The notes under the pieces: generated by a model
Seen by the model: only the letters and a program-made list of their open reading frames with translations
Told to the model about the DNA's origin: nothing
The model's database searches: none
Part shown: positions 28,047 to 57,656 of the stretch, piece by piece
Layout: each line of letters begins with the position of its first letter
Numbering within the stretch: the stretch's first letter is position 1
From: a virus
IMG/VR virus record: IMGVR_UViG_3300030329_003436
Span: 1 to 64,000 of that record
Reading direction: 5' to 3' (one strand)
Length of the DNA stretch: 64,000 nt
Position numbers and translations under genes: made by a program

Positions 28047-31000
28047 TTATTCCTCGTATGAAGACCCTGAAGACTCTGTTACTGTAATCTTAAACACAGC
28101 CCCTTCTTCGTCGTAGGGTAGTCCTCTCCAAGGCCCATATCCTTCATAACAACCACTCTGGCATTCATAAAGAACTGTGGGTTGGAAAATATTACAACAA
28201 GACTCATGTGCAGTAACATAATACGTCAAATTAACTGGGGTTGTGCTATTCATTTGATGTGCGTTATTCGTTGGTTCTTTTGACCCTACTGTTATATCAA
28301 ATAACCCGCCATGACGACTCCATATAGCCTCGTTTTCATTATCACTAAACTTATGATAGGTTTCAGAACAACCCAAACCCTCAATTGCCTCGCAGTCATC
28401 AATGATTTTTCCGTATATATTCCTGTCATCTACATTCTTGTTGTAAAGAATATCCTTATATAAATCCTTTGCTGGACCAATGGCTATTTCATGACCAAAA
28501 TTCCTAGCCATAATATTGTCTTCAAAAGCCCCTCCTCCAGCAGATGTGGTTGTGCTTTGTGGATATCTTCCAAGACAATCACCGCTGGTAGTTTGACCAG
28601 TACTAATATAGCAAAACTCGTTGTCGGTACACACGCTTTCAATTCTTGAACAGGTGGAACCGTCCCATTCGCATCCATTTAACCCATGCACCTTACCAGC
28701 TTCTATACAGTCTTCTTCTAGTCTTTGCACATCACAATTTAAATCGTTGTACTTTTGACATGTCTTATAGTTTTCATCAAGCATGGGGTCAAAGGTTTCT
28801 ACGGATTCGCTATGAGCGCTTCCAGTCCCGGTGCCTATCGTGGAATCGTAAGGTGTTTTTGCGGCGGTCGATCCCGAAACGCCATGAGGAGTTCTTTTTG
28901 TGTTCTCAAGATCTTCAAAATGTATTGTTGACTCGTAATGAATACTAAACGTTGTTGAGCTATGAGTTTTGGCTACATGCTCATTATCAAATATGGATTC
29001 AGCTATCTTATACTCTGGGTCGTTCCCCTCGCCCTTGTCAATAAAGAGAGTTTCTTGGCAGTGACCTCCTTCGTCGCCTCCCATTGGAGTACAATTCAAG
29101 CCGCTCTTGTCTGTAAAACTGCTTAAACGACAATGTGCTGAACAACCCTCGTTGAACTCATGCCACTTACTCTTTGTTAGAAATTTACCTTGATAATCAT
29201 TCTCACAAATATGCTCATCAACTTTTACTCCTTCTGGTAGTCTGGAATCCCATACACCTCTTGGGCCGCACCATTTTCCTCCCATACCTTGACAATCGGT
29301 TGGGTCAGTAACAGTATCATCCCTAGACCCGTTTACTATGCAAAACTCAGATTCGCATTGTAATTTTGTCATACCTTCGATGACCGGCCCTTTAACCTCA
29401 CCCGTTGCATCAATACCAACACATTCGCCCGGAGGAGCGTCTTCGTCAAACTGATCAACACACTCTGCTTCATAAGTGACAGCTCCACTAATAACTATTT
29501 TTTCACCGTCTTGTAAGTCGTGTGGGTGTGTCGTTGTAAACAATGTGTGAAGAAAGTTTCCTTCTTGATCATATTCGTTTTCAATGGAACTAATAGCGAG
29601 TCTTCTTTTGTATAAATGCTCTAAAGTATCTGAGTCATACATTGTAGATGGTATCTTACCAATCACAACGGTTTCAGGAATTTCAGGGATGCTTTCGGTT
29701 TCTGTTCCTGTGTCATCAACTATACCACTAGATCCATCGTCACTTTGGCCACCGCCACTATCATCTTGTGGTGGGTCTTCTGAAGGAATTTGGCTAGCCA
29801 GTGCCTCGTCAGCTATTTCCTGCATTGTTTCCGCGTTAGGTATTAATCCAATTCTTCCGGGCGCGATATACCCAGTAACCCAAAGATCGGTCTTAAAAGG
29901 CTCTCTTAAGCTTTCAAGCCTATAGCCTGAGCTTTGGTGAGCCACCGGCCAAGGATTCAATCCGTATGGCGAAGGCTCATTTCTAACAAATCCTCCGTCC
30001 ATATACCGAAATCTGTTATTGGAAAAGACATCGTGCATCCATACGTTATTTTCGTTTCTTGTTCTTCTTTGTAGTTTCCTATCTAGTGCAGCATTTCCGG
30101 TTCTTAGTAACGTAGCGTCTTCTACACGAATTTCTATAAAACCACTATGATGCCTGTCTCCTCCCATGGGAATGGCTTCAGTAAGACTTGTGTACCCAAG
30201 ACCCATGGCCGGATTCTTGGATGTGTTATTTCTGGGGTAGTCACCAAGATTTCCTAATTCCGCCTCTATTCTATCAGCCCTACCTGTCGTGACTTTAGTT
30301 GGATACCATACGGCTCCTTGGTATGCTTCACAGTCATCCTTTGTATCAAAACGATTATTGCTACAATAACCTGTGGGCCAGTCTGGTGGGCCTCCAGCAC
30401 AACATTTTGTATTGCTAGTTCTTACTGTTAAAATGTCGTAACCACGCTCTCTCTTCCATTCGCCTCCCGCAGATTTTGCATCCCAATACTCTGCGTCCAT
30501 ATCTACATGATAAACGGTCATTTTTTCACCGTTGTACCACCAGTCTGGGAGCAGATCTTCTAGGCTTTGCGCCGTACCCCAGCATGTCGGAAAAGTATCG
30601 CTTCTGTGTGGCGGAACACCTTGAATAGGACATGTGGCGTAGCCATCTGTATTAATCCTACAGCAGGATACGCATGGCGGTGTGCCATCGCAATCTACCG
30701 TTGGTATACTAGAGCATTTCCCACATTCGGTTTCGCCGCAGCCACCATGCTTGTTGACACAATCATTGGAGTCTGTACATCCCGTACAACCAAAGTCCCA
30801 ATCATAAGGAGTCTTAGTAAGGCGTGTAGTCCAAGTACCATCGGCTGCTTCACAAGATTCTTGGTTAGGTTGGTCAATTGTTTCACCGTCTTCTCGGACA
30901 CATACTTCCTCTTGTACATTTTCGCGTGGACAGGGTGGTTTATAAGCATCGTCTCCACATGCGGGGAATGAACAAGTGGTAATTTCCCAAGCTAAACCTA

Positions 31001-34000
31001 GCTGATTATTATGATAATAATCTCCGGTTAGATTAAATTTAGCGCTACCGGAAGCAGCCATGCCATCGCCCGGAATTGGAGCGCCGTTGGAACATGCCAA
31101 ATTCATTCTTATCCAATGTCCATCTTGTGCTGGTTTAGGGAGAGGCGCTCTGGACGACCCAACACCAAAATCTCTTACGTCGTTCTTTGTTTCGCAAGCA
31201 CCGCAATCACATTCGTAACAAGTTTGAGACTTCCTATCTTTCTTGAAAGTCCATCCCTGTTCAGTACACCAATCCTTATATGATTGAAGCATCTGGGTAG
31301 CGTTGTGGGGATGTCTCAATACACCACAGTCATCAATACATTTACCTCCACCAAGACAGCAGCTTGGCCACTCATGGTGACTGCAAGAATATCCCCAACC
31401 AACACAGCCGTTACAACTCACACCCCCAACATAACGTTTGCTTGTATCAAAAGGACTGTATACACTGTCACTAAGAATTGCTGGATGACCCATAAACAGC
31501 CAGTCGGAAGCCCAGTAACCACCGTTATAAACAAGTGGTATATCTATCGGTTGGTCCAGTCCGGGGCAACCATCTCTTACGTCGTAATGTGTTTTGTAAC
31601 AATTTATGCCAGTTGCGGTGCTTGGTGGAAATTCTGCGCCGCCTTCGTTTTCGCATTTATGTGCTATACAGGTAGCCGACGTATCATCCCAAATACACTT
31701 ATTCGTCGCATTACAGTCTTGATTATTAGTTTTCTGTGCGCATATGGCGCTAGTTTTATTGTCCCTTCCCCATACTCCATTTCTGAAAGAACCATTAGGT
31801 GAACGCTCACAAGCGTCTCCACACCACGCGCCGTCACCCAGATTGGTAAACTGCTGATCACAAGTTATAAAATCTGTTTCACATAGGTCATCTCTTCCTT
31901 TTGGGTAGCCGGTACATGGCTCACATTCGCAATGTCCAGCCATAGGTGTTGGTTCACAATCAGCAATCGCCTGACCCCCGTTATCTTGACATTCATCGGG
32001 AAAGCCATCACCATCCGTATCAACCGGTGTCGCGTTTGCGGGATCGGCGCAGGTCGCGATAACAGCGAAGTCCGTACTACTGCCTGTGTAAGAACACTGA
32101 TATACGTCGGCCACCATGCGACACTTCATGTGATCACACCCCTTCGTCGGATGACACTGCCAGCTACCATCCGTTCCGCAGCCTCCACATTTTTGCACAA
32201 ATTCCTCAATTGTGGGGTTTTCTGGACAGCCGGAATCACACGCTCTTCCAGCAGCATTTTTGTCCATGCTCGTACATTCACAGTTACAGCATGGGTCAGT
32301 TAGTTTACCATGAGTTTGAAGCCAATCAATTGGGAGGCGGTCGTCATCAATGTAACTTTTTCTTGCATCAATCGGATGGAAAGCGCAATCGTCACAACAC
32401 TGTTTATTACAATGTTCTGTAAGACAAACACCAGAAGGAAGCGTGTCTGGATCGGTATCTTCCATGCAATCTGCTAAACAGGCTCCGTGTGTTTTGCCAC
32501 AGTGTTCGTTCTGCATAACGCTACAAGTCTTACCGTCAGCATACGGTTTTAAATGCCCAGTCCATACGCCATCCTCTGTGTAATCACGATTACATCGACT
32601 ATAACCAGCTTTTAACAGTCTAAATATAGAAGTATCTTGTGGGTGTACAGTGGCAACCAAATTTTCAGGCATAAAATGGTCAGCGCAAACAGGACAGTTC
32701 TCTTTTTGTTCTATTTGCACATAGTAATTGTCTGACATATTGGGCAAATCATACCTTGCCATGCCAGTGCCGTCCCAACCATCTCTATACTCATTTGAAA
32801 AATGATCGTAAGGTGTTGAGCTTTGGGTTTCAGGAGATATGTACCACATACCGGTATAAGGACATGTTTTATACGCTTCGACTCCCGATGTTCCTGTTGC
32901 TGGGTCGCCTATATCACCAACTATGAAATCATGGGGATTATCCCATGAAAACTGCTGCCAACACCCTGTTCCGTCAATGTCGCCAAAGATGTTTAACTCT
33001 GCGCACGGGGCAATTTGACCAGCAACAGCGTCTGCATATTTATGACCATTATCTTCATCGTATGAAACATAGACCTCCGCCAATTTACGACAATCCTCCA
33101 AGCTCATTATCGCTTCCGGCTGGGTTCCGGGCGGGTTTCCTCCAGCAACAATTTCACATCCACCATACGTAATACATGACTCTTCGCTTTCGAGAAAAAC
33201 TTCAGGGCTTGAAATAACAGTCGTGCTTAGTCCAGTTCCATCAACTGTTTGGCATGGGCATGCGGGTCTCAACCCATTGTGAGTAGCTACATAGCTTCCG
33301 CAAACCTTTTTTGTGCCATCAGTGAGGTCGCAAGATGTAAATCCTGTTGCAGTAACTTTGCCGTCTAAAGGCTCTCCATCACATGTAAATAGCTTGAAAT
33401 AATTTTCATCGTATTTTTCTACAACAACCCATGGGGCCGGAAGCGGATTCCCCTCGTCATCTTTGCCGCTGTAACAAGTGTCTATAGAAGTGCCATCCGA
33501 AAATGTTACTTGATAATTACAAGTACCATCGTCTTCTGGAGGGCATTTTGCTTCTGGCCATGCTTGTTTGTCACAATGTTCGCCCTTGCATTTTCCACCG
33601 TCTTTGTCTTCCCATACGGTTTCATTCCATTCCCTATTGGTCATTCTGTTTGCTTTAAAATTACCCAATACACCATTTATCTCAATCTGATCACCATTCT
33701 TAAGCAGGTGATTTCTTGACTTGATAATAACAGGACTGGTATTGCTTGCTATTTCAACCCTGCCAGATCTGGTTGTGCCTACGCAACTGTCTGCTACATA
33801 ACTAATTCCTTCTTCATCTGGGTTTGGGTAAAGACCAGTTCTTCCCCAATAATCTAAACTGTCTCCAGCGCTATTAGGCTGTATTAATTTAGTTCCGTTA
33901 TGACTGTACCCATAAACTAAATCTTTTAGTTCCGAGGGTATTTCTACTGTACTCTTGCAGCCAACACAATTACTAGAACCACACATGCCTAGCTCCTGAC

Positions 34001-37000
34001 AGGAGCCTTGAATCCACTCAAGAACCGGCCCCACACAGTCTGCTTCCGAATGACTTGTTGTTGTCTGGTCACTCGTTGTTCTACAGTAGCCTCCTTCGTT
34101 AATATCCCACTTACACTGTTCACTGTTACACTCTCCCGGCGTTTTGTTGCCTTCGCATGGGCAATTACTTCCGGGCAGATTCAGAGAATTCCATGAAAAA
34201 TCTGCGGCCAAGCAGTCTGCTTCATTATCATAAGGTTGCGGATTACCGTCCACGTCTACACATTCTGTAAGGTCACATCCAAGCTCTGATTTCCCCCATC
34301 CACAACCTATCCAATAACCACCAAGGACCAATTCACAATCGTCCCTGCCAGTGTCTCTACCTATGATATTAGGAGAGGGCAGTCCTGATGCGGGCGGTCT
34401 AGATGACAAACATACGCCTCTTCCTTCGCATTCACTTGGAGTAACCAGAATAGGCTCCTGCATCGCGTCTAATTCCATACATTCTGGATCTTCACAGGGG
34501 AACCAAGTTTTCCAGTTTGGCCCAACCTCTCCCGGCATACCAGTGCCGTTACATCTGCCGCCACACTGTGTTTCGCCGTAATGAGCAATTGTCCAATCGA
34601 GAACCTGTCTACCAATAGTTCGACACGGACCTCCAGCGGCGTGCATATTGTCAGCGGCGGTATAGGCAAAATCATTCTTAAACCAGAAATCATAACCCTG
34701 TGTCATGTCCCAGTTACAAAAAGCACCGCCCATCCCTGCGCCACAATCTTGATCACAATTTTCATGCGTGTCGCCTTCAGCTATGCATCCGTCATAGCAT
34801 CGCCAATAACTCACTCCAGAATCTATACAGGCGCTAAACATAGCAGCGTCTGTAACCGCTTCATCATATGTCTTATGCTTTTTCTGTTCTTGCTCTGTAG
34901 CCTTGAATGGCTGTGGGTGTATATTTAAAGCCCTTAACTTATAATGCCCTTTGGGATTGTCAATGCGGGCAAAACCGTTGGTATAACTGCTTTCGTAGTA
35001 GACATATTTACCACACCAACTTATCACGTCGCCTTCATGATTGTGTTCGTAATCTGGATCTCCGTCTAGATCTTCATCCCATATTGAACACCAAGATTTA
35101 TAGTCTCTAGAGCTATAATTATATGTTCCGGGGTAGAATCCTGCCGGATTACCATCTATATCCCCTCTACTATCTAACCATCTTGCCTGACCCCATTTTC
35201 CATCTTCACTGCCTTTAGCTCCAGCTATTGGGGTTTTTACGGTTAGGTCAAAGTTGGAACAATTGAGCATTTGATCAACAGGTATAAACAATACTGTTTC
35301 AAGACCCGGAGCGCCCTGTTTATGAGAAAGTTTTTCTAATTCTGCCGCCCATTGGTTTTGAGTCCATGTATGTATCGGATTACCATTATCATCTTTATAT
35401 GACAAACAGTCTTCTTGCGTAACATAGCCAGTATCTTGACCCTCTTTGTCTATACAAGCACCATCAGCAATACAGTCTTCACGATTATCATGTGTTGTTT
35501 CTTCAGGAGGAGTTGTTTGCTTCTGACAAACAGACGCCGGTCTTGATGAACAATCACCGTAGTAGTCACAACCCCTCAATATCAATGTAAAGTAATTGCC
35601 TCCGGTCATAGCGTCACCGGCTAAGGAGGTTCGCATGTGTGCGTTTTGTATTGAAGAGCAGGAGCTTGACGCGCCTAACATTGCTCCTCCCGACGCAATA
35701 TTTTCAGCGCCGGGGATAAGAATGGCTTCTCTATATGGGGTTATACAGGTGCCTTGGAGTCTTTCCTTGGTTAGCCCCGGTCCTCCAGCATTCATTTGTG
35801 ATGGCCCAGTTAGGTTGGGTTGGTGATTAGGCCCATCGTCTGAAATAGCATACCCACTACAACAGGCCGAAGGGTTGAAGCCACGATCCACCCACTTAGG
35901 ATACCAATCTCCACCGCAAGCCATACACTGCAATTCACCAACATTCCTACCCTCACCGTAGCATGTTCCGGTACTTGAATTCCACATACAGCCTTCTACA
36001 CCCAAGCAAGCGACTGGATCTGTGGTTGCTGCGCAGATATCGTCACAATCAGAGTGTAGTGGTATTTCATCACCGTTTTCGTCTAACTGTTCGCTACAAG
36101 TGGCCGCAGCTAAACATTCACTCTCTGTACATCCTTTTTCTGGAATCCAATCAAAACCGTTGTTGGTACACGTCTGTTCATCTTTAATTTGTGTATTTGT
36201 ACATACTCCACCACAATCTTTAAAAGCAGTCCCGTCTTTGTTTAAGCATCTACCAGACAATTGCGGAGCGATTTCACCATCTCTAAGACATCCAGTACGT
36301 ATAACATTGCTATCTTCGTTCCTACCTCCATAAACAGGAACGTCATTAAAATCTCCATAAATATTAGAGGAGTTTATTCTCCGGCCATCTGGACCTTGCG
36401 CCAAACTATCAATAGAGTCATAGACACCCTTAATACCGGAATAATTACAGTTAGATCGTTTTGAAATGGATTTTCCCGGCCATGGGTATGGTCTCCATTC
36501 TATTATTTTTTCGCCCCGCTGCATTGCTTCTAGAGCGCGAATCGACCGTTCGTTGAGTTCGTTTTTACCTCCAAAGTATGCATGTAGCGTATCTCGACAC
36601 GTTTCAGTGGTAGGGAGTATCGCGCTAATTGCAGGGCCAACCAGTGGAATCCTGCTGATGACAGCACCAGTGACCCACCCACATAATTCATATAGATTCT
36701 CTGCATGGTTTGCCGCTTCAATAAGCCTGTCTCTTACGTCATCGCAGTCTGTTTTTGTGGTGTAATTTGTCATCTCCTTATTTTCAAGAAGAAGCATGCA
36801 CTTTCCGTTAGTTTCTTCCCACGCTACTCTAGCCTGACTATCCGAAGTGTCTATAACGTCAATCGTAGTTACATCACATGGGTCGCAGTTAGGGTATAGA
36901 AGAACATCTTCATATTCATTGCCATTATAAATCTGTCCTCTACTCTTGGATGTTCCACCATCACAACATTTTCTACCACGCCAAGCGCCGTTATGATATC

Positions 37001-37337
37001 GCAAAAAGAACGTGTCGTTACCGTGTTCTTTCTCGTCACCAATAACTTCTCTAGCATACCAACGACCTTGTTTGTCTTGAACCACGCTTATAAGAAGTTC
37101 CTCTGGAAGATAGCATGGTCTACCTTCGGTTTCGGGAGTGGCAAATTCCGAACAAACACTATGACACCCACACCCTACGTTACAAGGATGGCCACCATTA
37201 TAGAAATAATTGAGGACACTTTGTTCATGATAGCCGTCTTCATAAAACGAAGCTCCGGCGACCTTGCCCGAATACCGGCCAGTCTTCTGGTTTTGTAGTC
37301 CCCCAGAGGAGGTGTCAAAATTGTCCCCAATTCCCAT
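28047..37337 (-). CDS. Giant cysteine-rich putative tail-tip/fibre protein (3096 aa)
   Basis: Uninterrupted ORF in the tail module; roughly 185-190 Cys by hand count; two FCCH-like tail modules; DxDGD loops. Confidence 0.75.
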   Translation of the reverse strand: MGIGDNFDTSSGGLQNQKTGRYSGKVAGASFYEDGYHEQSVLNYFYNGGHPCNVGCGCHSVCSEFATPETEGRPCYLPEELLISVVQDKQGRWYAREVIGDEKEHGNDTFFLRYHNGAWRGRKCCDGGTSKSRGQIYNGNEYEDVLLYPNCDPCDVTTIDVIDTSDSQARVAWEETNGKCMLLLENKEMTNYTTKTDCDDVRDRLIEAANHAENLYELCGWVTGAVISRIPLVGPAISAILPTTETCRDTLHAYFGGKNELNERSIRALEAMQRGEKIIEWRPYPWPGKSISKRSNCNYSGIKGVYDSIDSLAQGPDGRRINSSNIYGDFNDVPVYGGRNEDSNVIRTGCLRDGEIAPQLSGRCLNKDGTAFKDCGGVCTNTQIKDEQTCTNNGFDWIPEKGCTESECLAAATCSEQLDENGDEIPLHSDCDDICAATTDPVACLGVEGCMWNSSTGTCYGEGRNVGELQCMACGGDWYPKWVDRGFNPSACCSGYAISDDGPNHQPNLTGPSQMNAGGPGLTKERLQGTCITPYREAILIPGAENIASGGAMLGASSSCSSIQNAHMRTSLAGDAMTGGNYFTLILRGCDYYGDCSSRPASVCQKQTTPPEETTHDNREDCIADGACIDKEGQDTGYVTQEDCLSYKDDNGNPIHTWTQNQWAAELEKLSHKQGAPGLETVLFIPVDQMLNCSNFDLTVKTPIAGAKGSEDGKWGQARWLDSRGDIDGNPAGFYPGTYNYSSRDYKSWCSIWDEDLDGDPDYEHNHEGDVISWCGKYVYYESSYTNGFARIDNPKGHYKLRALNIHPQPFKATEQEQKKHKTYDEAVTDAAMFSACIDSGVSYWRCYDGCIAEGDTHENCDQDCGAGMGGAFCNWDMTQGYDFWFKNDFAYTAADNMHAAGGPCRTIGRQVLDWTIAHYGETQCGGRCNGTGMPGEVGPNWKTWFPCEDPECMELDAMQEPILVTPSECEGRGVCLSSRPPASGLPSPNIIGRDTGRDDCELVLGGYWIGCGWGKSELGCDLTECVDVDGNPQPYDNEADCLAADFSWNSLNLPGSNCPCEGNKTPGECNSEQCKWDINEGGYCRTTSDQTTTSHSEADCVGPVLEWIQGSCQELGMCGSSNCVGCKSTVEIPSELKDLVYGYSHNGTKLIQPNSAGDSLDYWGRTGLYPNPDEEGISYVADSCVGTTRSGRVEIASNTSPVIIKSRNHLLKNGDQIEINGVLGNFKANRMTNREWNETVWEDKDGGKCKGEHCDKQAWPEAKCPPEDDGTCNYQVTFSDGTSIDTCYSGKDDEGNPLPAPWVVVEKYDENYFKLFTCDGEPLDGKVTATGFTSCDLTDGTKKVCGSYVATHNGLRPACPCQTVDGTGLSTTVISSPEVFLESEESCITYGGCEIVAGGNPPGTQPEAIMSLEDCRKLAEVYVSYDEDNGHKYADAVAGQIAPCAELNIFGDIDGTGCWQQFSWDNPHDFIVGDIGDPATGTSGVEAYKTCPYTGMWYISPETQSSTPYDHFSNEYRDGWDGTGMARYDLPNMSDNYYVQIEQKENCPVCADHFMPENLVATVHPQDTSIFRLLKAGYSRCNRDYTEDGVWTGHLKPYADGKTCSVMQNEHCGKTHGACLADCMEDTDPDTLPSGVCLTEHCNKQCCDDCAFHPIDARKSYIDDDRLPIDWLQTHGKLTDPCCNCECTSMDKNAAGRACDSGCPENPTIEEFVQKCGGCGTDGSWQCHPTKGCDHMKCRMVADVYQCSYTGSSTDFAVIATCADPANATPVDTDGDGFPDECQDNGGQAIADCEPTPMAGHCECEPCTGYPKGRDDLCETDFITCDQQFTNLGDGAWCGDACERSPNGSFRNGVWGRDNKTSAICAQKTNNQDCNATNKCIWDDTSATCIAHKCENEGGAEFPPSTATGINCYKTHYDVRDGCPGLDQPIDIPLVYNGGYWASDWLFMGHPAILSDSVYSPFDTSKRYVGGVSCNGCVGWGYSCSHHEWPSCCLGGGKCIDDCGVLRHPHNATQMLQSYKDWCTEQGWTFKKDRKSQTCYECDCGACETKNDVRDFGVGSSRAPLPKPAQDGHWIRMNLACSNGAPIPGDGMAASGSAKFNLTGDYYHNNQLGLAWEITTCSFPACGDDAYKPPCPRENVQEEVCVREDGETIDQPNQESCEAADGTWTTRLTKTPYDWDFGCTGCTDSNDCVNKHGGCGETECGKCSSIPTVDCDGTPPCVSCCRINTDGYATCPIQGVPPHRSDTFPTCWGTAQSLEDLLPDWWYNGEKMTVYHVDMDAEYWDAKSAGGEWKRERGYDILTVRTSNTKCCAGGPPDWPTGYCSNNRFDTKDDCEAYQGAVWYPTKVTTGRADRIEAELGNLGDYPRNNTSKNPAMGLGYTSLTEAIPMGGDRHHSGFIEIRVEDATLLRTGNAALDRKLQRRTRNENNVWMHDVFSNNRFRYMDGGFVRNEPSPYGLNPWPVAHQSSGYRLESLREPFKTDLWVTGYIAPGRIGLIPNAETMQEIADEALASQIPSEDPPQDDSGGGQSDDGSSGIVDDTGTETESIPEIPETVVIGKIPSTMYDSDTLEHLYKRRLAISSIENEYDQEGNFLHTLFTTTHPHDLQDGEKIVISGAVTYEAECVDQFDEDAPPGECVGIDATGEVKGPVIEGMTKLQCESEFCIVNGSRDDTVTDPTDCQGMGGKWCGPRGVWDSRLPEGVKVDEHICENDYQGKFLTKSKWHEFNEGCSAHCRLSSFTDKSGLNCTPMGGDEGGHCQETLFIDKGEGNDPEYKIAESIFDNEHVAKTHSSTTFSIHYESTIHFEDLENTKRTPHGVSGSTAAKTPYDSTIGTGTGSAHSESVETFDPMLDENYKTCQKYNDLNCDVQRLEEDCIEAGKVHGLNGCEWDGSTCSRIESVCTDNEFCYISTGQTTSGDCLGRYPQSTTTSAGGGAFEDNIMARNFGHEIAIGPAKDLYKDILYNKNVDDRNIYGKIIDDCEAIEGLGCSETYHKFSDNENEAIWSRHGGLFDITVGSKEPTNNAHQMNSTTPVNLTYYVTAHESCCNIFQPTVLYECQSGCYEGYGPWRGLPYDEEGAVFKITVTESSGSSYEE

Positions 37338-37345
37338 GTCTGTTC

Positions 37346-39172
37346 CTACCTAATTGCGGTCAGCGGGTAATCATCGTCTGGCCCGCAGTCTTCTCCAGTA
37401 ACAAAACCTTGAGCAAAAAACTTTCTTGTACAAGATGACATTTCACCCTGTTCGCAACCGGCATGGCTTACTATTTCCATCCCAAAGAATTCAGCTTGTA
37501 GTATTATATGAATAGGTATAACTTCTTTAACTGATATTGCTTCCTGATCAGTTACCGTACAAACCGTATCGCTTTTAGATCTACTATATTCGACTACAAT
37601 TCTTCTACCTGTATCATAACTTAAAAAGTTATCTCCTAGCATAAGTCCTTGATTTAATGGATTTTCAATAATTATTTTTTGGTATAAAAGCGGGAGGGCT
37701 GTTTCGCTGAAGGTTGGTTCGGATTTTGTGCCATCATCTTTTTGTTTTCCAAGAACCTTATCAACTAATTTTTCACCTTCTGTTTCGTAATCTTTTGTAG
37801 AACCCCATCCATGACACGGATCTCCTAATCTACGAGCATAAGGATTTCCACCAGCAGCTTTATAAAATTTGTCTCCACAGTTAATTCTTGAATTTTTTCC
37901 ATCTACTACATGATCTGTAGACCTTAGTATAACTGCATCATAAAAAGGGACGCACGCTCTTACAAATTCATTACAGTTTGCGTACAAGTTGTCGTTAGAA
38001 TCTTTTTTGGCCAGACATTGACCACACCAGTTTTCATCTTCTGGGTCGTAAATTTCTATGTCTGGGTATAAAGAGCTTTTAGGAAAGTACATAAAATAGT
38101 CACATTCATCCGATGGACAAGGGTTTCTATAAAGTCTACCCAAAGAAGCTATATTATTATTTATACCAAAATTAAAACTATTACTTCCATCTATTCCAGC
38201 TTTCGGTAGTATACACTTAGTTGCTTTGCATAAATAAATTCCATTATGTCTACCGCCAACCCATACTTTTCTATCTCTATCCCATCTTAGGTCAATGGGA
38301 CCGCTTTTCCATTGATCAGTTCTTTGCAGATGATGAGGGAGAAAGTGTATTTTGGGATTTTTCTGCGCGTAGTTAGCCGGTTCGTTTCTGGGAGATCCCC
38401 AAAAATCTGATTCTCTATCACCAACTCTTTGCACTGCATCATATTTAGCATTTGGGACGGGCATACCATGCGTGTCATACCCCCATCCCGTAAGAACAGC
38501 CGGTCCTCTTAGTCCAACAGGTCTTCCGGCTCCTCCCAACGCTTGATTCTCAGCGGTTATTCCTCCCAGTTTAGGATATGCAGTGCCTTCACCACCGTGC
38601 GTAAACTTAAGCTGACCCTTAACATCTTCTGTGCTTTCTCCACGAACCATGTAATTGACATTATGTCCCGATGGATATGGATATAAGGTTGATGAATTAA
38701 CCGTGCCAGAACCAATATGCCCCCAATCGGAAAGAACGATTTCTTCACCCTTTTCGTCTACAAAACTATAGGGCTTCTCAAAATGAGGCATCGCCTTTTG
38801 GCCGTCTACAATAAACCCTGTGGATGTAGCTGATTCACCCGCCGCGTTTCTTTTTGCAAAAGCGGCACTATAAGGAATAAAAAGACCATCAAGACTCATC
38901 CCCGACTGACTCTTCCAATGGTCGGCAGACTTATCATGATGCTTGTCTAAAAACTTGGTCTTAAAGTTGTTCTGTGTTGTGTATACAACTTGTGCAGTGA
39001 CATCCAAGTTGTCTATTGTCTCACCATCGTGACCTATCAAAGGAGACCCTGTTGGGTCAAGACTTGCTCCCCCTAAGTTCCTGTACAGAGTGCCGCCGAT
39101 CATATTGATAGATATGTCAGGGTTGTGTTTTTTACTGACATTTACGTCAGGATCTTTTCTTGGTTCTACCAT
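37346..39172 (-). CDS. Putative tail protein, Cys-rich C-terminal half
   Basis: Position; GLRGPAVLTGWGYD..G.PVP and GPIDLRWD motifs. Confidence 0.6.
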   Translation of the reverse strand: MVEPRKDPDVNVSKKHNPDISINMIGGTLYRNLGGASLDPTGSPLIGHDGETIDNLDVTAQVVYTTQNNFKTKFLDKHHDKSADHWKSQSGMSLDGLFIPYSAAFAKRNAAGESATSTGFIVDGQKAMPHFEKPYSFVDEKGEEIVLSDWGHIGSGTVNSSTLYPYPSGHNVNYMVRGESTEDVKGQLKFTHGGEGTAYPKLGGITAENQALGGAGRPVGLRGPAVLTGWGYDTHGMPVPNAKYDAVQRVGDRESDFWGSPRNEPANYAQKNPKIHFLPHHLQRTDQWKSGPIDLRWDRDRKVWVGGRHNGIYLCKATKCILPKAGIDGSNSFNFGINNNIASLGRLYRNPCPSDECDYFMYFPKSSLYPDIEIYDPEDENWCGQCLAKKDSNDNLYANCNEFVRACVPFYDAVILRSTDHVVDGKNSRINCGDKFYKAAGGNPYARRLGDPCHGWGSTKDYETEGEKLVDKVLGKQKDDGTKSEPTFSETALPLLYQKIIIENPLNQGLMLGDNFLSYDTGRRIVVEYSRSKSDTVCTVTDQEAISVKEVIPIHIILQAEFFGMEIVSHAGCEQGEMSSCTRKFFAQGFVTGEDCGPDDDYPLTAIR

Positions 39173-39173
39173 G

Positions 39174-42100
39174 TTATCCTCTGTAGTTACTACGGAACTG
39201 TTGTGGGTCTGGAAGTCTGCTTCTTCTCAGGTCTTCCTCCTGTTTTGTACGAATATCCCTTATCTGCTTTGCTTGTTCTCGAATACGTTGCTCTTGTATT
39301 TCTTGCAGATTTCCAAACTTTGGTTGTAGCTGCATGTTATAAGTTGTACTCATTCCATCCGGCCCTACATCAACCGACATATCTGTGATTATCGGACCAA
39401 AATACGGAGTCGCAGGTGGCCCAACAGCGTATAACGCTTGTAAATGTGGTGGGATTCTCGCCGGAATAGGTAAAGTACCAAAAGAAACATGGGTTCCTAA
39501 ATCATAAAAAGGTGGACCATCTAGCGTTACACTTCCCCTTTCGGTCTCTTGATTGATTTTAAATTGGTCTACATCTGCCAAGCATTTAGCTCTCGCAGCA
39601 AAAGCCATTTCGCTTTCTGCACCAAAGATTCCGGGGTGATAAGATGAGTCGTTAATATATAAAATCTTGCCCCAGTCTTTACCCTTAGACCACGGACCCC
39701 AATAGTAAATCCGACTCTCCATAGGAACCCCGGCATAGTAAGGCTTAAACGCAGCAGAAACCATAGGGGCTTTATTTATATCGGCACCCATTCTCATATG
39801 AACTGGATGATGGAAATAGTTGTTCAAAGCAGCCTTTAGATAAGCGTCTGCTGTTCTTGAGTCGCCAACCTTTGTAAGAGGGATGCATAGACTCGTTCCT
39901 TGAACCAGTTTTCGCCCAGACGTATCAACCCAATTATGCATCGGTATTGCTTCACACGCCGCTTTATCTAATATCGGCACGCTCGTGGCTGGATGAACTC
40001 TAACAACTCTTCCAGTAACTAAATCTTCACAATAACCACTACCTGCGGGGGTTACATTGTCAGCAGTGCATCTACCACCACTTATCCATGCAAATAATGG
40101 AGCTAAACATTCATCTTTTGGCCTGTCAACAACCTTGTCGGTGGATCTTTCTATACAAACCGCTGTCTCCCAGTGGCATCCTTCAGAATCGGGACCGGTC
40201 TGACATTCGTGTCTCGCAACCTTGTCAACCCATGTTCCACCATTGTCTAAACATAGTTCAGGCGTTCCCCATGTGGGATCGTTGTGGTCACGTTTGGCTA
40301 TACCGGCGCCTGTATCACAGTAAGGTATTCTATCACCAGCATCACAGTTATCATCAAACTCTTCTCCATCAGGAAACAGTTGGGCGCGTTTGTCATTGTA
40401 GGTATCAGGTAGGTCATATCTCGCGGCTCCACCTTCTATACTTATGAGAGCGTAAGGTTTTAAGAATGAACTTCGGACACTTCTCCCTTTCCATTCATGA
40501 TTAGCAGACCCTACAGTATTGAGAGCTAAACATTCCGCCTTGCTTTTTGGTGGTGGGTCGATAGCGTAATAAGGATCAGCCATTGGCTCGCCATCTTTAA
40601 AGCATTCTTTTTTTTCCGACTCATTGGTAAGAGTTTCTATATAACTAATCTCTGGCAACCAGTATATCTTAGGATCTACGCTAGCCTTAACAAATACGGT
40701 TCCATCTTGAGAAGCATCGCCAGCTATATCGGAATAGAATTGTTCTATATAGGTCTCAGGGTTAAATTCCCTAAAACTTAATTTGTGCGGCTGGTGGCTT
40801 AGTCTTTGAATTTCTGTATTAGGAAATGCTACAAAAGCTTCTAAATTACCATCAGAATTCCAGAAGTTTTGATTAGCGGGATATCTTAGGTTTTCTTTGC
40901 TATTTATTCTTGGTTCATCTTCTATCCATTCCACGGTGACATTATTATCAATACCATAAATATAACAATCGTTAAGCCTTCTAATTTCTATGAGTTCTTG
41001 TAAGTTGGTTGTATCTACGCATACCCCCACATCGTTAAATGGCCATCCGGCACTTGCTATGTCCCACCTATTGTCTACAATAATAACTTCGCCGTCCTTT
41101 TTAGAGACAACAGCCTGCCATTCACTTTGTATTCCGTAAGTAGACCACTTATGACCGTCATCTTCGCAGTCGGATATACTGTTATATTTATTCCAAGTGG
41201 CAGTAAAATTGACACAGTCTGTTTCGTTATCAATGGGCTTCCCGCCGTCTTCGCATGGAGATTCAAAGATGGCTGTTACCGACTTAGCCTTTTCCTCGCA
41301 TCCCGCTCTGGTCGATACGTCCACGGAATTGCCAGCAACGGTGATCAGGCCAGTATGTAGATTGCCATTTTCGTCTTTGCAGCATTGACATGTAGGACTT
41401 GCCGAGCATCCAACCTCAAGAGGTGGAGCAAACGGAAGCTGCATCAAATAAGTTCTTCCGTAATACTTGGTAGCTACTTCGTTGACAACTCTCCAAGAGA
41501 AATTCTTCTCCATCTTCTTGTGTTCTTCTGGAGTTAAATCAGCCCTTGTTCCCTTGCAGAGAAATGGAACACCTTCGTTATGCTCATCAACAGAAGTGTC
41601 GCCACTTTCGGATGGTTTTAGTACAGGGGGAATCGCCGGATACTCTGGACGGCCAACACCAAAGAATGCCTCCATAGCATGTTTCAAACCACCCTGCGTA
41701 CTATCGTTCATTATGCACTCTTTCCATTCCATCTTGCATGGAAGCCAAGAGTCATAATTTCTCATATATTTAAACCACGCATCCTGACTGGTAGCAGCGT
41801 GTCGCAATTCGGTAACTGTCGCTAGATAGTGGTTTTCAGCCACCCCGTCTACTAAAATGTCTTCGCCGCTAGGTCCATGAATAAACCCAGCCAAATGGAG
41901 ATTGATAGGAATTGTAGCGGTGTCAGGACGAACCAAATCTCCGGTGCCGGGATTCCAACCAGTCCACTTATGAGGCTCCCATCGTGTTTTACAGGTATTG
42001 TCACCAGCATGCTCCCTGCAACAATAGTCCCTACATCCTTGTTCGTCGCCTGCGGTTACTTCGCTTTCAACGTCAGCACCTGTAGACGGATCTACCTCAA

Positions 42101-45100
42101 TTTTTACACAAGTCCCTTCGTTTGCACATTCGCCAGCGGTCAGCCCTGATACTCCAGCGGGTGCAGCAGTACTCGGATCAACATGGTAAGGTTCACATTT
42201 TGCGTTTTCGTCACAGTCCTGTTTGTTATTATGATCCGTGTTTATACACCCACCCTCTTGAGCTTGTCTCATTCCGGTGATAAAATTATAAGGATCTGGT
42301 TCGTCGTGGAATGTGCATCTTGAAAATGTAACATCAACCTCTTCTGCTGTTACAATAGCGTTCCCCGTTCTTACCCAGCTACCACCCAATTTTTCGCAAC
42401 ATAGTTTGCTTTCTGGGTCACATTCAGGATCGGTGTCAGGACAGGTCATTCCCGTACAAGATCCTTCTTGCGAGCTTGTCATGACAACTTCTTTTCTTCC
42501 GTAAGGATCATGGCAAAACAATGTATAACTGTATCCAGTAGCTACTTTCTTTTTCCTCTTCTCTCCATTCTCTACTATAGTTACAGTATCATAGAGACAT
42601 GTGTCCATCTCGTGGCGTGAATCTTTATAACCAATGTTATGAAAGTTAAGATTGGAGGGTGATGGAATATGGACCGAACTACATTTTCCTTCGTATCTGT
42701 CGAAAAATTCCTTATTGCTATAAATTCCGTCTTCTGAATCAAAATCTCTGTATGGGTCGTCATCATTAAATGCGCCTTTGATCGGGTTTCCTCTAGTTGT
42801 ATTTTTTACAAACCCATCAGAAGGAGTATTGATTAGCTGCTGATCGCTTATTGACCACCCCCACATCGGATACAGATCTATGTAACCATCCCCTTCTTCA
42901 AAAGAATTGGACAACCAAACCGCTCCACGGTTGCCGCTAGAGTCTGTCCATGCAGCACAGTTTACTCTACTCGATTCGTCAATCTTAGTCCAAGTACCAA
43001 GAGGGGAAGCTGGAGGTGTATCACAACTAACCTTACTGCTTCTTCCGGCTATAACATCACCAGCACCATCAAGGCACGCATAACAATTTCCACCAAAATC
43101 TATTCCTTCACAGGACTCATCGCCGTTGTGGTTATTTTCGTCAGATTCTTCCGAAGCATCAGCGTGCGGAGTACAATTGCCTCTTGCGGCCTCATTAAGC
43201 CTGCCCATGTCAGCCTTTATAATGCCTTCATCATCGTCAAAAGGATGAAAATGATTTTGCCAAGCTCGATATTCATCGCTTGACCAGCCAAGAGTGTATG
43301 TCCACTTCTCCCATTTTTTACCAGCGGCAATACAAGCAGCTTCTGTTGTGTGTGCCGGATCGTCACATTGTCCTGTGCATGTAGCAGGATACCCTCTTTG
43401 AGTCCCCGGAGCCTCATGACCTTCTGGGGTTAGACATATACCACCCCTAGCTCTCGCTTTGCCTCTTTCATCGTAAGTGTCTATAGGTTGACTTCCAGTA
43501 ACATAACCCAGACTTGCTCCATCTAATTCTGTACTGGGTAAGTATTCCATAGGCCATTCGTCGGGAATACCATCGCCATCCTTATCAACATATTCGTCGT
43601 ATCTGGGTTTTCGCTTACCTAATGGAGTTACGCCAACAACTCTTGTTCTTGGCCCTCCAAGCATAAATACGCCAGTATAAACATCGTTGTATTCATAGCC
43701 GACATTTGTATTGCGGATGATAGGTTCAGAGTAGCCTAATGATGTACCATCCCACTTGAACTGTTCTTCCGTCCACCATGCGGTTGGGCTTCTTTTTACC
43801 AAAGCGTCATCAATACTGTCTGAAACAATATGAGGAACAATCTTATCTGCTTGGTTTCTTGGAATTGCCCATACTTTAATAATTCCAGCATAGGTACTAT
43901 CTTGAACAGTGGGTGCAGCAACACGCGAGGGTCCATACCAATTATTATATGCAATCCCGGCAAACGGGGTTACGCTTCCGGGTTCTGGGTCACGAATTAA
44001 CTCAACAAAAAAATCTGCTCCGGCGGCTTCACAAATGGTTTGGATAAGAGAAAGTAGACTGACATGATTTTCGTTTATACGAAGACTCGAATCTAGATTT
44101 CCTCCCCCCCAAGGACGTTGACTACCCGGAATTTTAGAAGGGGGATTTTTAACCTTATGAAGATTATATAAATCAGTCAGATCTACTTTATATCTATACG
44201 GGCCTTCTTTTCTGTCAGAAGTCCTGCCTCTACCAGCGATAACCACGGGTTCATCGTCTGGACTAAAAGTATTTCTGTTGTCTGTGACATAATACGATGG
44301 GCCACCCATAGGCTCATTTGCTCTTTTATAACATTCGTCTCCACCCATGAGCATAAAATTAAGAGCTGGTAGAATACCAAATTCCTGTTTTTCAAAAGGC
44401 GTGCCGCTAAGTCCTAGTGCGGCACCACCCCAAGTGCCACCGGGATCACACCCAAAAGGAGGATCAATTTTGACATCGGGATCGTACCATACCATCCCAG
44501 CTTCTTTCATTTCAGCGTTTCCAAACCTTCCGTTTGGATTGGCTCCGCTATTACCCAACTCTTCAAAAATACCGCCGGGAGGAGCAAGGTAATCAGATGC
44601 GGTAGGTGTTAAATCTGCAAACCCGTCAATATCCGGTCTAAACTGAGAGAACTCATAGTACCCAAACACGTTCAATATATTATAATAGCCGCTATACCCT
44701 TTTTCCATAGCCCTCATGTTGGGGATATCTCTGGTGTTTGCTGGTTCCGTCCCAGAATAGCCACTGATTAAATCATTACCGTCATAGAACCCTTCTACCG
44801 CATCTGGGTAATCAATATCTGCTGGCGCCACGGGGTTTATAAATCTTTCCCCTAACAACACTATGGTGTCTTCCAGAACAACTCTTGGGTCTACTACCTC
44901 TACCTGATAGGTTATTCCACGTTCGCTATAGTCTTTTTTTACATTTTTGATAATACCATTAAATTCAAAAATAGAGCTATCTTGGTAATCATATTGATCT
45001 GCACCAGTAGCCGGTGGTGGTTTATGATTAGGATGCGTTACCCCCCACTCGCGTAATCTATAATTAAAATAGACCGGCGCGCCAGCCCTTGGTTTAAAAA

Positions 45101-57598: not shown

Positions 57599-57610
57599 GT
57601 TGGGAACCCC

Positions 57611-57656
57611 AAAAAAAATGGGCATACCGATAGCGCAGAGCTACGCGATACACCCA
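57611..57656 (-). terminator. Terminator-like hairpin directly upstream of the tape measure start
   Basis: TGGGTGTATCG pairs with CGGTATGCCCA and is followed by T8, ending 12 nt before the ATG. Confidence 0.65.

What the first reader, a model, noticed from the sequence alone, without database searches (positions are those of the whole stretch)
29180..42255. Nested (matryoshka) architecture of a small C...[TN]xxxCxxxGxxW module
Seen: simple copies (CTNTQIKDEQTCTNNGFDW; CSNNRFDTKDDCEAYQGAVW; CDDPAHTTEAACIAAGKKW) and places where several N-halves come first and the Trp ends are stacked afterwards. Examples: ~41950-42255 (CINTDHNNKQDC..TAGEC..DEQGC..TRW-EPHKW-TGW), ~35350-35535 (NREDC..TQEDC..HTW-TQNQW) and ~29180-29470 (TKLQC..DPTDCQGMGGKW-CGPRGVW). 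The module also occurs in the 846-aa LamG protein. Inference: the module inserts into its own loop, building hairpin-like stalks or branches rather than linear tandem arrays, and has spread across several tail genes.
Basis: partly seen in the sequence, partly recalled or inferred. Interest (0 to 1): 0.75.

Follow-up and report, generated by a model that had tools for sequence, protein, structure and literature searches.

The report
Self-nesting cysteine-tryptophan module in phage tail
Two giant tail-tip proteins of an uncultured marine phage are studded with a roughly 20-residue cysteine/tryptophan building block that is repeatedly inserted into copies of itself, probably making disulfide-stapled fingers that differ between related phages and may touch the host.

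Summary
The module (C1, 4-20 residues, N-cap, xxx, C2, xxx, G, x, x, W) occurs far above chance in three minus-strand tail genes after the tape measure gene: the 3096-aa, 2111-aa and 846-aa LamG proteins. All three quoted "heads first, Trp tails later" stretches are at the stated places.

Sequence evidence supports the nesting reading:
- Between orthologues, whole modules come and go inside the loops of other modules.
- One orthologue lacks a whole composite, cut exactly from its outer Cys to its last Trp.
- In 110 unrelated carrier proteins, a module preceded by an open head is followed by an extra Trp tail in 9 of 12 cases, against 37 of 426 otherwise (p = 1e-7).
- Other proteins show 5 heads with 5 tails, and 4 heads with 5 Trp ends.

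The three-dimensional pairing is not shown. Both AlphaFold runs were poor and the tool gives no coordinates.

The unit matches no Pfam, NCBIfam or PHROG family. A single copy sits in T4 baseplate protein gp8, whose structure is solved (1N7Z). Linear arrays occur in type IV pilins, PilY1 and other phage tail proteins.

This scan has already noted the same nested layout on other DNA.

I did not test function. I infer a loop-inserted structural or adhesive finger.

The parts
28047..37337 (-). Gene for the 3096-aa Cys-rich tail-tip protein (P0001), the main carrier of modules and nests
   Evidence: ORF; 6.0% Cys. Orthologues at 54-70% identity, plus one distant relative (46% over 5% of the query). 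Syntenic homologues in IMG/VR loci L001 and L002.
39174..45509 (-). Gene for the 2111-aa tail-tip protein (P0002). Its Cys/Trp clusters at aa 672-867, 935-1194, 1367-1453 and 1630-1855 are insertions into a conserved core.
   Evidence: BLASTP against the 1238-aa and 1471-aa homologues of L002 and L001, which lack these clusters.
48029..50569 (-). Gene for the 846-aa LamG-domain protein just after the tape measure gene; one module at aa 105-131 (window 50177-50257)
   Evidence: Pfam Laminin_G_3, E = 5e-11. Regex match. Profile match of 32.7 bits.
41955..42248 (-). Three-level nest in P0002 (aa 1088-1185): three heads, then three Trp ends. The innermost unit has a long hairpin loop.
   Evidence: Layout kept in orthologues P0005-P0009, with the first W replaced by F in two of them. 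AlphaFold gives hairpin, helix and strand for the innermost unit at pLDDT 68-78; the outer parts fall below 50.
35349..35528 (-). Two-level nest in P0001 (aa 604-663): a head, a complete inner module, then the tail TQNQW
   Evidence: P0017 lacks exactly this block, from the outer C1 to the last W. P0016 and P0015 carry a further complete module inside loop 1 of the inner unit.
29250..29423 (-). Two-level nest in P0001 (aa 2639-2696): a head, a complete module, then a tail CGPRGVW
   Evidence: Kept in P0015 and P0016. The distant relative P0018 has a canonical inner module plus an extra W tail at the aligned place.
43302..43436 (-). Two-level nest in P0002 (aa 692-736).
   Evidence: Orthologues P0005-P0008 show an open head, a closed module and one or more extra W.
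42915..43175 (-). Composite in P0002 (aa 779-865) with 6 Cys and 3 Trp. I read it as a three-level nest that uses both insertion sites; this parse is by hand.
   Evidence: The Cys:Trp ratio is 2:1. The parse is not independently tested.
34296..34481 (-). Two-level nest in P0001 (aa 953-1014): a head, a module, then the tail IGCGW. In orthologue P0015 a canonical 19-aa module is added inside loop 1 of this module.
   Evidence: Pairwise alignment shows a 23-aa insert in P0015 at position 1029.
33999..34130 (-). P0001 aa 1070-1113: a module (aa 1085-1108) inserted into a C-x-W...C motif. It is absent from P0016 and P0017.
   Evidence: HMM score 14.9 bits.
34191..34262 (-). Simple long-form module, P0001 aa 1026-1049
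   Evidence: HMM 26.8 bits; 51.8 bits with profile A5.
36147..36248 (-). P0001 aa 364-397: an open head plus the simple copy CTNTQIKDEQTCTNNGFDW, with no extra tail. Orthologue P0015 has a 30-aa unit inserted between the G and the xxW of this module.
35892..36131 (-). Irregular cluster in P0001 (aa 403-482) with 10 Cys and 3 Trp, ending in GGDW-YPKW. It includes a C-x-W-N...C variant.
   Evidence: A tail-only profile match at 35892-35927.
30831..30902 (-). Simple module, P0001 aa 2146-2169; present here, absent from P0015, P0016 and P0017
   Evidence: HMM 23.3 bits.
30306..30365 (-). Simple short-form module CSNNRFDTKDDCEAYQGAVW, P0001 aa 2325-2344
   Evidence: HMM 22.2 bits. Conserved in P0015-P0017.
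41145..41381 (-). Module cluster in P0002 (aa 1377-1455), lying within an insertion that the L002 homologue lacks entirely
   Evidence: AlphaFold gives strands, a helix and a strand at pLDDT 63-75 for its first unit.
39930..40604 (-). Further modules in P0002 (aa 1636-1673 and 1722-1860), a mix of tandem and nested units
   Evidence: The parse is by hand.
50585..57625 (-). Tape measure protein gene (2346 aa). It fixes the block as a long-tailed phage tail module and carries no Cys module.
   Evidence: PHROG tape measure families, E down to 1.5e-30. It has 0% Cys.

Best explanation
The unit is a small loop-insertable domain of about 19-27 residues. It runs: a short strand starting at C1, a variable loop 1, an N-capped helix carrying C2, a G-G turn, then a short strand ending in an invariant Trp. 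C2 is presumed to form a disulfide with C1.

Because its two ends lie side by side, the unit can be spliced into a surface loop of a host protein. It can also be spliced into either of two places in another copy of itself: loop 1, or the G-G turn. Repeated insertion at the G-G turn gives the order head, head, head, then tail, tail, tail, in which each outer head is closed by a later Trp tail. The expected result is a disulfide-stapled finger with the innermost unit and its variable hairpin at the tip.

In this phage such fingers and single units are insertions into the conserved cores of the tail-tip proteins encoded downstream of the tape measure gene. They are the parts that change most between related phages. 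I therefore infer that they act as rigid projections that present variable loops to the host surface, or that brace the tail tip outside the cell.

Shown here: the motif, its excess over chance, gain and loss of whole units inside units, head/tail balance in unrelated proteins, and the module's distribution.

Inferred: the fold, the disulfides, head-tail pairing and function.
For: Excess over chance:
- Regex counts of 7, 5 and 2 against shuffle means of 0.88, 0.12 and 0.00.
- HMM domains up to 26.8 bits against 4.4 bits for the best shuffled protein.

Units inside units, from orthologue comparison:
- P0015 has a canonical 19-aa module within a 23-aa insert in loop 1 of the P0001 976-1009 module.
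- P0015 has a 30-aa unit between the G and the xxW of the 379-397 module. The head and tail on either side are the orthologous ones.
- P0016 and P0015 carry an extra module in loop 1 of the inner unit at 604-663.
- P0017 lacks that whole composite, from the outer C1 to the last W.
- Most indels of 12 aa or more between P0001 and P0015 or P0016 are whole modules.

Balance of heads and tails in 110 non-redundant unrelated carriers:
- An extra W follows within 6 aa in 9 of 12 modules preceded by an open head, against 37 of 426 without one. Fisher p = 1.3e-7, odds ratio 31.
- The junction is always C2-xxxG-x followed directly by the inner C1.

Deeper nests elsewhere:
- P0024 has 4 heads and then 5 Trp ends.
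- An IMG/VR protein family has 5 heads and then 5 Trp ends; most of these ends keep the T-W-T signature of the module's C-half.

Loop insertion into host proteins:
- The P0002 clusters are missing from the 1238-aa homologue, with 0-18 aa in their place at two of the sites.
- In P0021 the array follows the part that matches the T5 distal tail protein (pb9), matched at aa 34-140.

Secondary structure:
- AlphaFold gives strand(s), then helix over C2, then strand at three units, at pLDDT 56-78.

Solved relative:
- T4 gp8 aa 139-162 scores 15.2 bits with an HMM built from 248 unrelated instances. The segment is conserved in four gp8 homologues of 41-63% identity.
Against: - There is no three-dimensional evidence for head-tail pairing. 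Both predictions had mean pLDDT of 42 and 38, the outer heads of the P0002 nest were below 50, and no coordinates are returned.
- The balance is not strict. P0001 364-397 has a head and no tail. P0015 has 3 heads and 2 W at one site. P0024 has one W too many. About 9% of plain modules also carry an extra W.
- Several window clusters hold extra cysteines and could only be parsed by hand.
- The record shows no thiol oxidase, DsbA or thioredoxin, so how disulfides would form is open; the record is only 64% complete.
- Function rests on context alone.
Confidence: 0.7

Rival explanations
1. The heads are decayed copies in an ordinary linear array that have lost their Trp. The run of Trp ends is a separate short Trp repeat, for example a sugar-binding aromatic strip, that merely tends to lie downstream. 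Nothing is nested.
For: Linear arrays are the commonest form of this module elsewhere. About 9% of plain modules carry an extra W such as TW or NxGLPW with no open head before them. The head/tail counts are not always equal. No structure shows pairing.
Against: An extra W is about eight times more frequent after an open head (75% against 8.7%, p = 1.3e-7). The counts match at depths 1, 2 and 4 open heads. Most tails of the 5:5 family keep the T-W-T or AG-x-TW signature of the module's own C-half. P0017 lacks the 604-663 composite as one block bounded by the outer C1 and the last W. In P0015 the orthologous head and the orthologous tail are separated by the insert.
Confidence: 0.17
2. The 'nested' stretches are larger, unrelated cysteine-rich extracellular domains (PSI-, EGF- or thrombospondin-like) that only resemble split modules.
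For: P0001 holds other Cys motifs: four C-x-W-[DN]-x(4-6)-C motifs that recall PSI domains, and a DTDGDG calcium-type motif with a weak TSP3_bac match at E = 0.11. The P0002 nest is conserved as a block in five orthologues.
Against: No PSI, EGF or TSP1 match appears in Pfam even at E = 10 on ten sub-fragments. Profile searches match the heads as head-only partial hits of the module model. Nests built from fully canonical heads exist in other proteins.
Confidence: 0.06
3. The paired cysteines bind a metal or are enzymatically cross-linked rather than forming simple disulfides. The layout would then reflect a maturation substrate, not a fold made by self-insertion.
For: The phage proteins are made in a reducing cytoplasm, and no oxidase was found in the record. 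A small conserved Cys-rich protein follows the 3096-aa gene in the window and in L001 and L002.
Against: There are only two Cys per unit, and no His or further Cys is conserved (consensus from 248 instances). The same unit sits in secreted pilins and PilY1, where disulfides are usual. No radical-SAM or similar gene was seen next to the genes; I did not search for one systematically.
Confidence: 0.05

Closest known systems
Single C-x10-C-x3-G-G-x-W-T segment of T4 baseplate wedge protein gp8 (PDB 1N7Z, 1N80, 1N8B, 5IV5 and others)
   Same: It has the same spacing and signature, G-x-C-S-x8-[DE]-C-xxx-G-G-x-W-T. It scores 15.2 bits with an HMM built from 248 instances in unrelated proteins. It is conserved across gp8 homologues of 41-63% identity. 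It sits in a phage tail-tip (baseplate) protein.
   Different: There is one copy only, with no nesting and no array. The family has no name in Pfam, NCBIfam or PHROGs. I could not read the coordinates, so its fold, the Cys-Cys distance and the closeness of its ends are not checked here.
Linear tandem arrays of the same module in type IV (pseudo)pilins, PilC/PilY1 adhesins and other phages' distal tail, fibre and tail-tip proteins (uncurated)
   Same: The consensus is the same, G-x-C-S-D-P-x-Y-T-T-x-x-x-C-E-A-A-G-G-T-W-T. These proteins were retrieved with a profile made from the window's own modules: 111 proteins at E <= 1e-3 among 1.84 billion. The setting is likewise extracellular or virion.
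   Different: Most are beads on a string with 3-5-residue linkers. The window phage has no canonical linear array; its copies are diverged, single or nested, and inserted into large conserved cores.
Heads-then-tails nests in other proteins: a 5:5 nest in an IMG/VR giant virion-protein family (L008, L010 and others) and 4 heads with 5 Trp ends in bacterial protein P0024
   Same: The grammar and the junction (C2-xAAG-x then C1) are the same. Earlier notes of this scan describe the 5:5 family.
   Different: Those nests are built from near-canonical short-form units. The window's nests are shallower (2-3 levels), more diverged, use loop 1 as well, and carry extra cysteines.
'Evolved' distal tail (Dit) and Tal proteins of lactococcal and Lactobacillus siphophages, with carbohydrate-binding modules inserted into loops (own knowledge)
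   Same: Extra domains are spliced into loops of conserved tail-tip proteins encoded after the tape measure gene, and they vary between strains. The window shows the same logic.
   Different: Those inserts are 100-200-residue lectin-type folds without disulfide ladders or self-insertion. Sugar binding is not shown here.
Small disulfide-rich extracellular modules of eukaryotes (PSI, EGF, thrombospondin type 1 repeat; own knowledge)
   Same: Small size, paired cysteines, conserved Trp, and use in extracellular adhesion proteins.
   Different: No Pfam match at E up to 10. There are only two Cys per unit. The Trp ladder lies C-terminal to the cysteines, whereas in TSR it comes first.

Membership tests
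gp8-type Cys/Trp mini-module (uncurated; C1-loop-Ncap-xxx-C2-xxx-G-G-x-W) | Two Cys 10-22 residues apart, with a T/S/D/N cap four residues before C2 | tested here: met
   The 14 regex matches of the window correspond to 10 distinct modules. 40 instances from the window proteins and their homologues align on C1, the cap, C2 and W.
gp8-type Cys/Trp mini-module (uncurated; C1-loop-Ncap-xxx-C2-xxx-G-G-x-W) | G(G)xW closing 6-7 residues after C2, with Trp invariant | tested here: met
   W is invariant in alignments A4 and A5. The C2-to-W spacer is 6 residues in 327 of 392 simple units of unrelated carriers. In nests the W is displaced beyond the inner unit.
gp8-type Cys/Trp mini-module (uncurated; C1-loop-Ncap-xxx-C2-xxx-G-G-x-W) | Profile-level similarity to carriers outside this phage lineage, including the solved T4 gp8 segment | tested here: met
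   The window-derived profile A5 finds 111 proteins at E <= 1e-3. An HMM built from those proteins scores T4 gp8 aa 139-162 at 15.2 bits. A5 itself did not reach gp8 in the PDB search at E <= 10.
gp8-type Cys/Trp mini-module (uncurated; C1-loop-Ncap-xxx-C2-xxx-G-G-x-W) | Strand, helix (over C2), strand fold with adjacent ends | tested here: inconclusive
   DSSP of the AlphaFold model gives this pattern at three units, but only at pLDDT 56-78. No coordinates are available. Adjacency of the ends is inferred from loop insertion.
gp8-type Cys/Trp mini-module (uncurated; C1-loop-Ncap-xxx-C2-xxx-G-G-x-W) | C1-C2 disulfide | not testable with these tools
   This needs coordinates of 1N7Z or disulfide mapping. 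The Cys:Trp ratio is 2:1 (or 5:2 where a tail carries a Cys) in most window nests; the 9:3 three-level nest is the exception. That is only consistent with a disulfide.
Recursive self-insertion (nested domain) architecture | Complete units lie inside the loops of host units, with the host's own parts kept on both sides | tested here: met
   Orthologue comparisons at P0001 379-397, 604-663 and 976-1009.
Recursive self-insertion (nested domain) architecture | The number of open heads is matched by the number of later Trp tails (bracket order) | tested here: met
   9 of 12 against 37 of 426, p = 1.3e-7. Head:tail counts of 5:5, 4:5, 3:3 and many 2:2. Exceptions exist.
Recursive self-insertion (nested domain) architecture | Physical pairing of each outer head with its distal tail | tested here: inconclusive
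   The AlphaFold models have mean pLDDT 42 and 38, and contacts cannot be read.
PSI domain (PF01437), EGF and TSP1 repeats | A match to the curated family profile | tested here: not met
   No hit for the whole proteins at E <= 0.1, nor for ten Cys-rich sub-fragments at E <= 10.
Evolved Dit/Tal-type decoration of siphophage tail-tip proteins | Extra domains inserted into loops of a conserved tail-tip protein core downstream of the tape measure gene | tested here: met
   The tape measure gene is identified. Four P0002 clusters are absent from the shorter syntenic homologues.
Evolved Dit/Tal-type decoration of siphophage tail-tip proteins | The host protein is a recognisable Dit or Tal, and the insert is a carbohydrate-binding fold | tested here: not met
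   P0001, P0002 and P0003 have no Pfam, PHROG or PDB-sequence match. The insert matches no CBM family.

The most novel reading that the evidence does not exclude
A roughly 20-residue domain that follows a recursive grammar. It can be spliced into itself at two fixed points, so phages and pilus adhesins could grow disulfide-laddered fingers of adjustable length, with a variable hairpin at the tip. In this phage lineage such self-insertion would then be a main source of strain-to-strain change in more than 5000 residues of tail-tip protein. That would make it a compact way of evolving host-contact surfaces that has no named family and, as far as I could find, no description in papers.
Probability: 0.55. 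Interest if true: 0.8.

Novelty: new variant of a known kind. Interest (0 to 1): 0.68.

Why it matters
If the heads and tails pair as the sequence grammar implies, this is a rare natural case of a domain that nests recursively inside itself. It would be a simple rule for building rigid protein projections of adjustable length. It would also give a name and a fold to a widespread unannotated element of phage tail tips, type IV pilins and PilY1 adhesins, which are the parts that decide what a phage or pilus sticks to. One copy is already present in the solved T4 gp8 structure, so the basic geometry can be checked at once. The nested forms are small enough for NMR or crystallography. For annotating marine phage genomes, the module marks the exposed, fast-changing parts of otherwise unrecognisable giant tail proteins.

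Tried and rejected
Structure prediction:
- Job 1 was P0002 aa 1005-1480 with a 7-sequence alignment. Mean pLDDT was 42, and only three single units reached 56-78.
- Job 2 was the bacterial protein P0024 (4 heads, 5 Trp ends), run as a single sequence. Mean pLDDT was 38.
- No coordinates are returned, so head-tail contacts cannot be read. I did not run fold search on such poor models.

Family and structure libraries with no usable hit for the module or for P0001, P0002 and P0003:
- Pfam, PHROGs and NCBIfam
- PDB sequence search with profile A5, P0020, P0021, A1 and A2
- ESM Atlas: no usable lead in either call

Other searches:
- tblastn of P0002 and P0003 against 50,697 phage records found no match.
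- A search for shorter homologues to deepen the alignment added one sequence.
- Three full-text queries on nested or cysteine-rich repeats in tail fibres and pilins found nothing relevant. The T4 tail review gives no detail on the gp8 segment.
- Erv1/Alr, DsbA and thioredoxin were not found in the 97.6-kb record.

Analyses dropped:
- A strict Cys/Trp prefix test on whole clusters, because core tryptophans and extra cysteines confound it.
- The first version of the head-counting script, which miscounted open heads. It was corrected.

Full report
**Setting**

The window is part of a 97.6-kb IMG/VR virus record, estimated 64% complete. On the minus strand lies a long-tailed phage tail block:
- a 2346-aa tape measure protein (PHROG tape measure families, E down to 1.5e-30)
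- an 846-aa protein with a LamG-type domain (Pfam PF13385, E = 5e-11)
- proteins of 832, 2111 (P0002), 608 (P0003) and 3096 (P0001) residues
- two small proteins

P0001 has 6.0% Cys and P0002 has 2.9%. The tape measure protein has none. P0001, P0002 and P0003 match no family in Pfam or PHROGs, no PDB sequence and no cultured phage record.

They are real genes. Metagenomes hold orthologues of P0002 at 39-69% identity plus more distant ones, and of P0001 at 54-70%. Two IMG/VR contigs keep the same gene order.

**The observation**

One simple copy, P0002 aa 715-733, lies at 43311-43367, just beyond the finding's end.

The full motif (C, 4-14 residues, [TSDN], xxx, C, 3-5 residues, [GAN], 1-2 residues, W) occurs 7, 5 and 2 times in P0001, P0002 and the LamG protein. 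Shuffles give means of 0.88, 0.12 and 0.00, and 0 of 500 shuffles reach the observed value in each case.

I built a profile HMM from 40 instances in these proteins and their homologues. It gives 7 and 3 domains of at least 8 bits in P0001 and P0002. The best score among 60 shuffled proteins is 4.4 bits. The HMM and a second profile also report partial hits: heads without tails at P0001 625-649 and P0002 1085-1103, and a tail without a head at 35892-35927. In the rest of the record the module occurs nowhere else.

**What the unit looks like**

From 248 short-form instances in unrelated proteins the consensus is G-x-C-S-D-P-x-Y-T-T-x-x-x-C-E-A-A-G-G-T-W-T. A long form has 14-20 residues between C1 and the cap.

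AlphaFold on P0002 aa 1005-1480 was poor overall (mean pLDDT 42). Three single units did reach pLDDT 56-78, each with the pattern of strand or hairpin, helix over C2, then strand through the aromatic end. The fold is therefore suggested, not shown.

**Evidence that units sit inside units**

1. Orthologue comparison.
   - At P0001 976-1009 all orthologues have a module that starts C-L-S or C-V-D and ends GG(Y/H)W, or F in P0017. P0015 has in addition a canonical unit, CSDPTYTNKEECEDNGGYW, between that module's C1 and its helix.
   - At P0001 379-397, P0015 has 30 extra residues between the G and the xxW. These are a C...C unit ending in F. The head before the insert resembles the P0016 head, and the tail after it aligns with the tails of the others.
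   - At P0001 604-663 the layout is head, complete module, then TQNQW. P0016 and P0015 each carry a further complete module inside loop 1 of the inner unit. P0017 lacks the entire block, cut from the outer C1 to just after the last W.
   - Most indels of at least 12 residues between P0001 and P0015 or P0016 are whole modules.

2. The P0002 clusters at aa 672-867, 935-1194, 1367-1453 and 1630-1855 are absent from the 1238-aa homologue in L002. At two of the sites 0-18 residues stand in their place. The units therefore behave as loop inserts into a conserved core, which requires that their ends lie close together.

**The bracket test**

A profile of 12 modules from the window and from L001 and L002 was searched against 1.84 billion representative proteins. 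It found 111 proteins at E <= 1e-3, many with 5-17 matched stretches. They include:
- prepilin-type proteins (N_methyl motif; a Methylococcaceae MAG)
- a PilC/PilY1 protein (Desulfurivibrionaceae)
- a T5 pb9-like distal tail protein
- proteins with T7 fibre N-terminal and lambda-type tail-tip domains
- a Listeria-Bacteroides-repeat surface protein
- hypothetical proteins of Caldilineaceae, Acidimicrobiaceae and Acidobacteria

No Pfam or NCBIfam model covers the repeat in them.

Most of these arrays are linear. In these 110 non-redundant proteins, a closed module with no open head before it is followed by another W within 6 residues in 37 of 426 cases. A closed module preceded by an open head (C2, 2-6 residues, then the next C1, with no W) is followed by one in 9 of 12 cases, and a tenth has the W seven residues on. 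Fisher p = 1.3e-7, odds ratio 31. The junction is nearly always C2-x-A-A-G-x followed at once by the inner C1. The tail is 3-5 residues plus W.

P0024 has four canonical heads in a row, then AVW and four more W ends.

I then scanned IMG/VR for the DNA pattern of the junction C-x-AAG-x-C-[ST]-D-P. This found eight contigs of one giant-protein family with five heads followed by five Trp ends. In L010 the last four are TPTHTW, TPVNTW, TNAGHTW and TSAGHTW; in some members one W is Y. Most of these tails keep the T-W-T or AG-x-TW signature of the module's own C-half.

In the window, head:tail counts are:
- 3:3 at P0002 1088-1185
- 2:2 at P0002 692-736
- 2:2 at P0001 604-663, 953-1014 and 2639-2696
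- 6 Cys: 3 Trp at P0002 779-865

Exceptions exist. P0001 364-397 has a head and no tail. P0015 has three heads and two W at the 604-663 site.

**What could not be shown**

Neither AlphaFold run gave a usable model of a nest, and the tool returns no coordinates. Disulfides are inferred from the two-Cys unit and its extracellular carriers. No Erv1, DsbA or thioredoxin gene is recognisable in the incomplete record.

**Comparison with what is known**

I tested this. T4 gp8 aa 139-162, TGMCSIASLTDKDECLKLGGKWTP, scores 15.2 bits with the HMM from unrelated carriers. The segment is conserved in the gp8 of phages VH7D, vB_VmeM-32, RB43 and vB_AsM_ZHF. gp8 is solved as 1N7Z and ten further entries.

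The unit therefore exists in a known structure but has no family name. PSI, EGF and TSP1 profiles do not match.

In working logic the closest analogue is the decoration of siphophage Dit and Tal proteins by loop-inserted binding modules (own knowledge). Those inserts are large lectin folds and do not nest in themselves. Three full-text searches found no description of the repeat or of its nesting, which is weak evidence of absence.

The same heads-then-tails layout was already noted by this scan on other DNA. My DNA scan reached that family independently.

**Verdict**

The self-insertion reading is well supported by sequence grammar and by orthologue indels. It needs refining: there are two insertion sites, and the balance is not strict. 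It remains unproven in three dimensions. I put the nested finger model at about 0.7. A role in host contact or in bracing the tail tip is inferred from position and variability only.

Noticed in passing
window 27486-28028 (-): A 180-aa protein with 3.9% Cys directly follows the 3096-aa gene. Cys-rich proteins of 194 and 166 aa hold the same position in L001 and L002. It matches only PHROG 32048, of unknown function (E = 8e-5). It could be a folding or assembly helper for the Cys-rich giant protein.
   Followed up: partly
window 28650-28736, 34107-34130, 35982-36020 and about 31660-31700 (-), all within P0001: A second recurring motif: a helix Cys, about 5 residues, then C-x-W-[DN]-x(4-6)-C. 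Examples are GCMWNSSTGTC, QCKWDINEGGYC, KCIWDDTSATC and GCEWDGSTC. It recalls the C-G-W-C core of PSI domains but has no Pfam match. It may be a variant of the module with an extra disulfide after the Trp.
   Followed up: partly
window about 31990-32020 (-), P0001 aa about 1773-1782; also P0002 aa about 641-650: Calcium-binding-type DxDGDGxPDE motifs (DTDGDGFPDEC and DKDGDGIPDEW). The first gives a weak partial Pfam TSP3_bac match (E = 0.11).
   Followed up: no
window about 36480-36850 (-), P0001 aa 163-286: A 124-aa block with four Cys and a hydrophobic stretch is present in P0001 but absent from orthologues P0016 and P0017. It is a different kind of insert from the module.
   Followed up: no
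L001:1791-3725 (+), against window 45529-48027 (-): The 645-aa protein that holds the position of the window's 832-aa gene in L001 carries one good module (23.3 bits, aa 514-542). The window's 832-aa protein has almost no cysteine (0.1%). The module is gained and lost gene by gene among relatives.
   Followed up: partly
L001:3738-8150 and L002:4411-8124: The homologues of the 2111-aa protein in two distant relatives are only 1471 and 1238 aa, with about 1% Cys. This gives a natural 'undecorated' core for comparison.
   Followed up: yes
P0017 against P0001 aa 2470-3096 (window 28047-29928): Orthologue P0017 (2256 aa) ends where P0001 still has 627 residues to go. This could be a split gene, a shorter variant or the end of an assembly.
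   Followed up: no
window 1-26600 (+): A long run of plus-strand genes of about 200-550 aa faces the tail block. Earlier notes of this scan read part of it as sugar (Kdo-type) biosynthesis and transfer genes. If the fingers are glycosylated, these would be candidates. I did not examine this.
   Followed up: no
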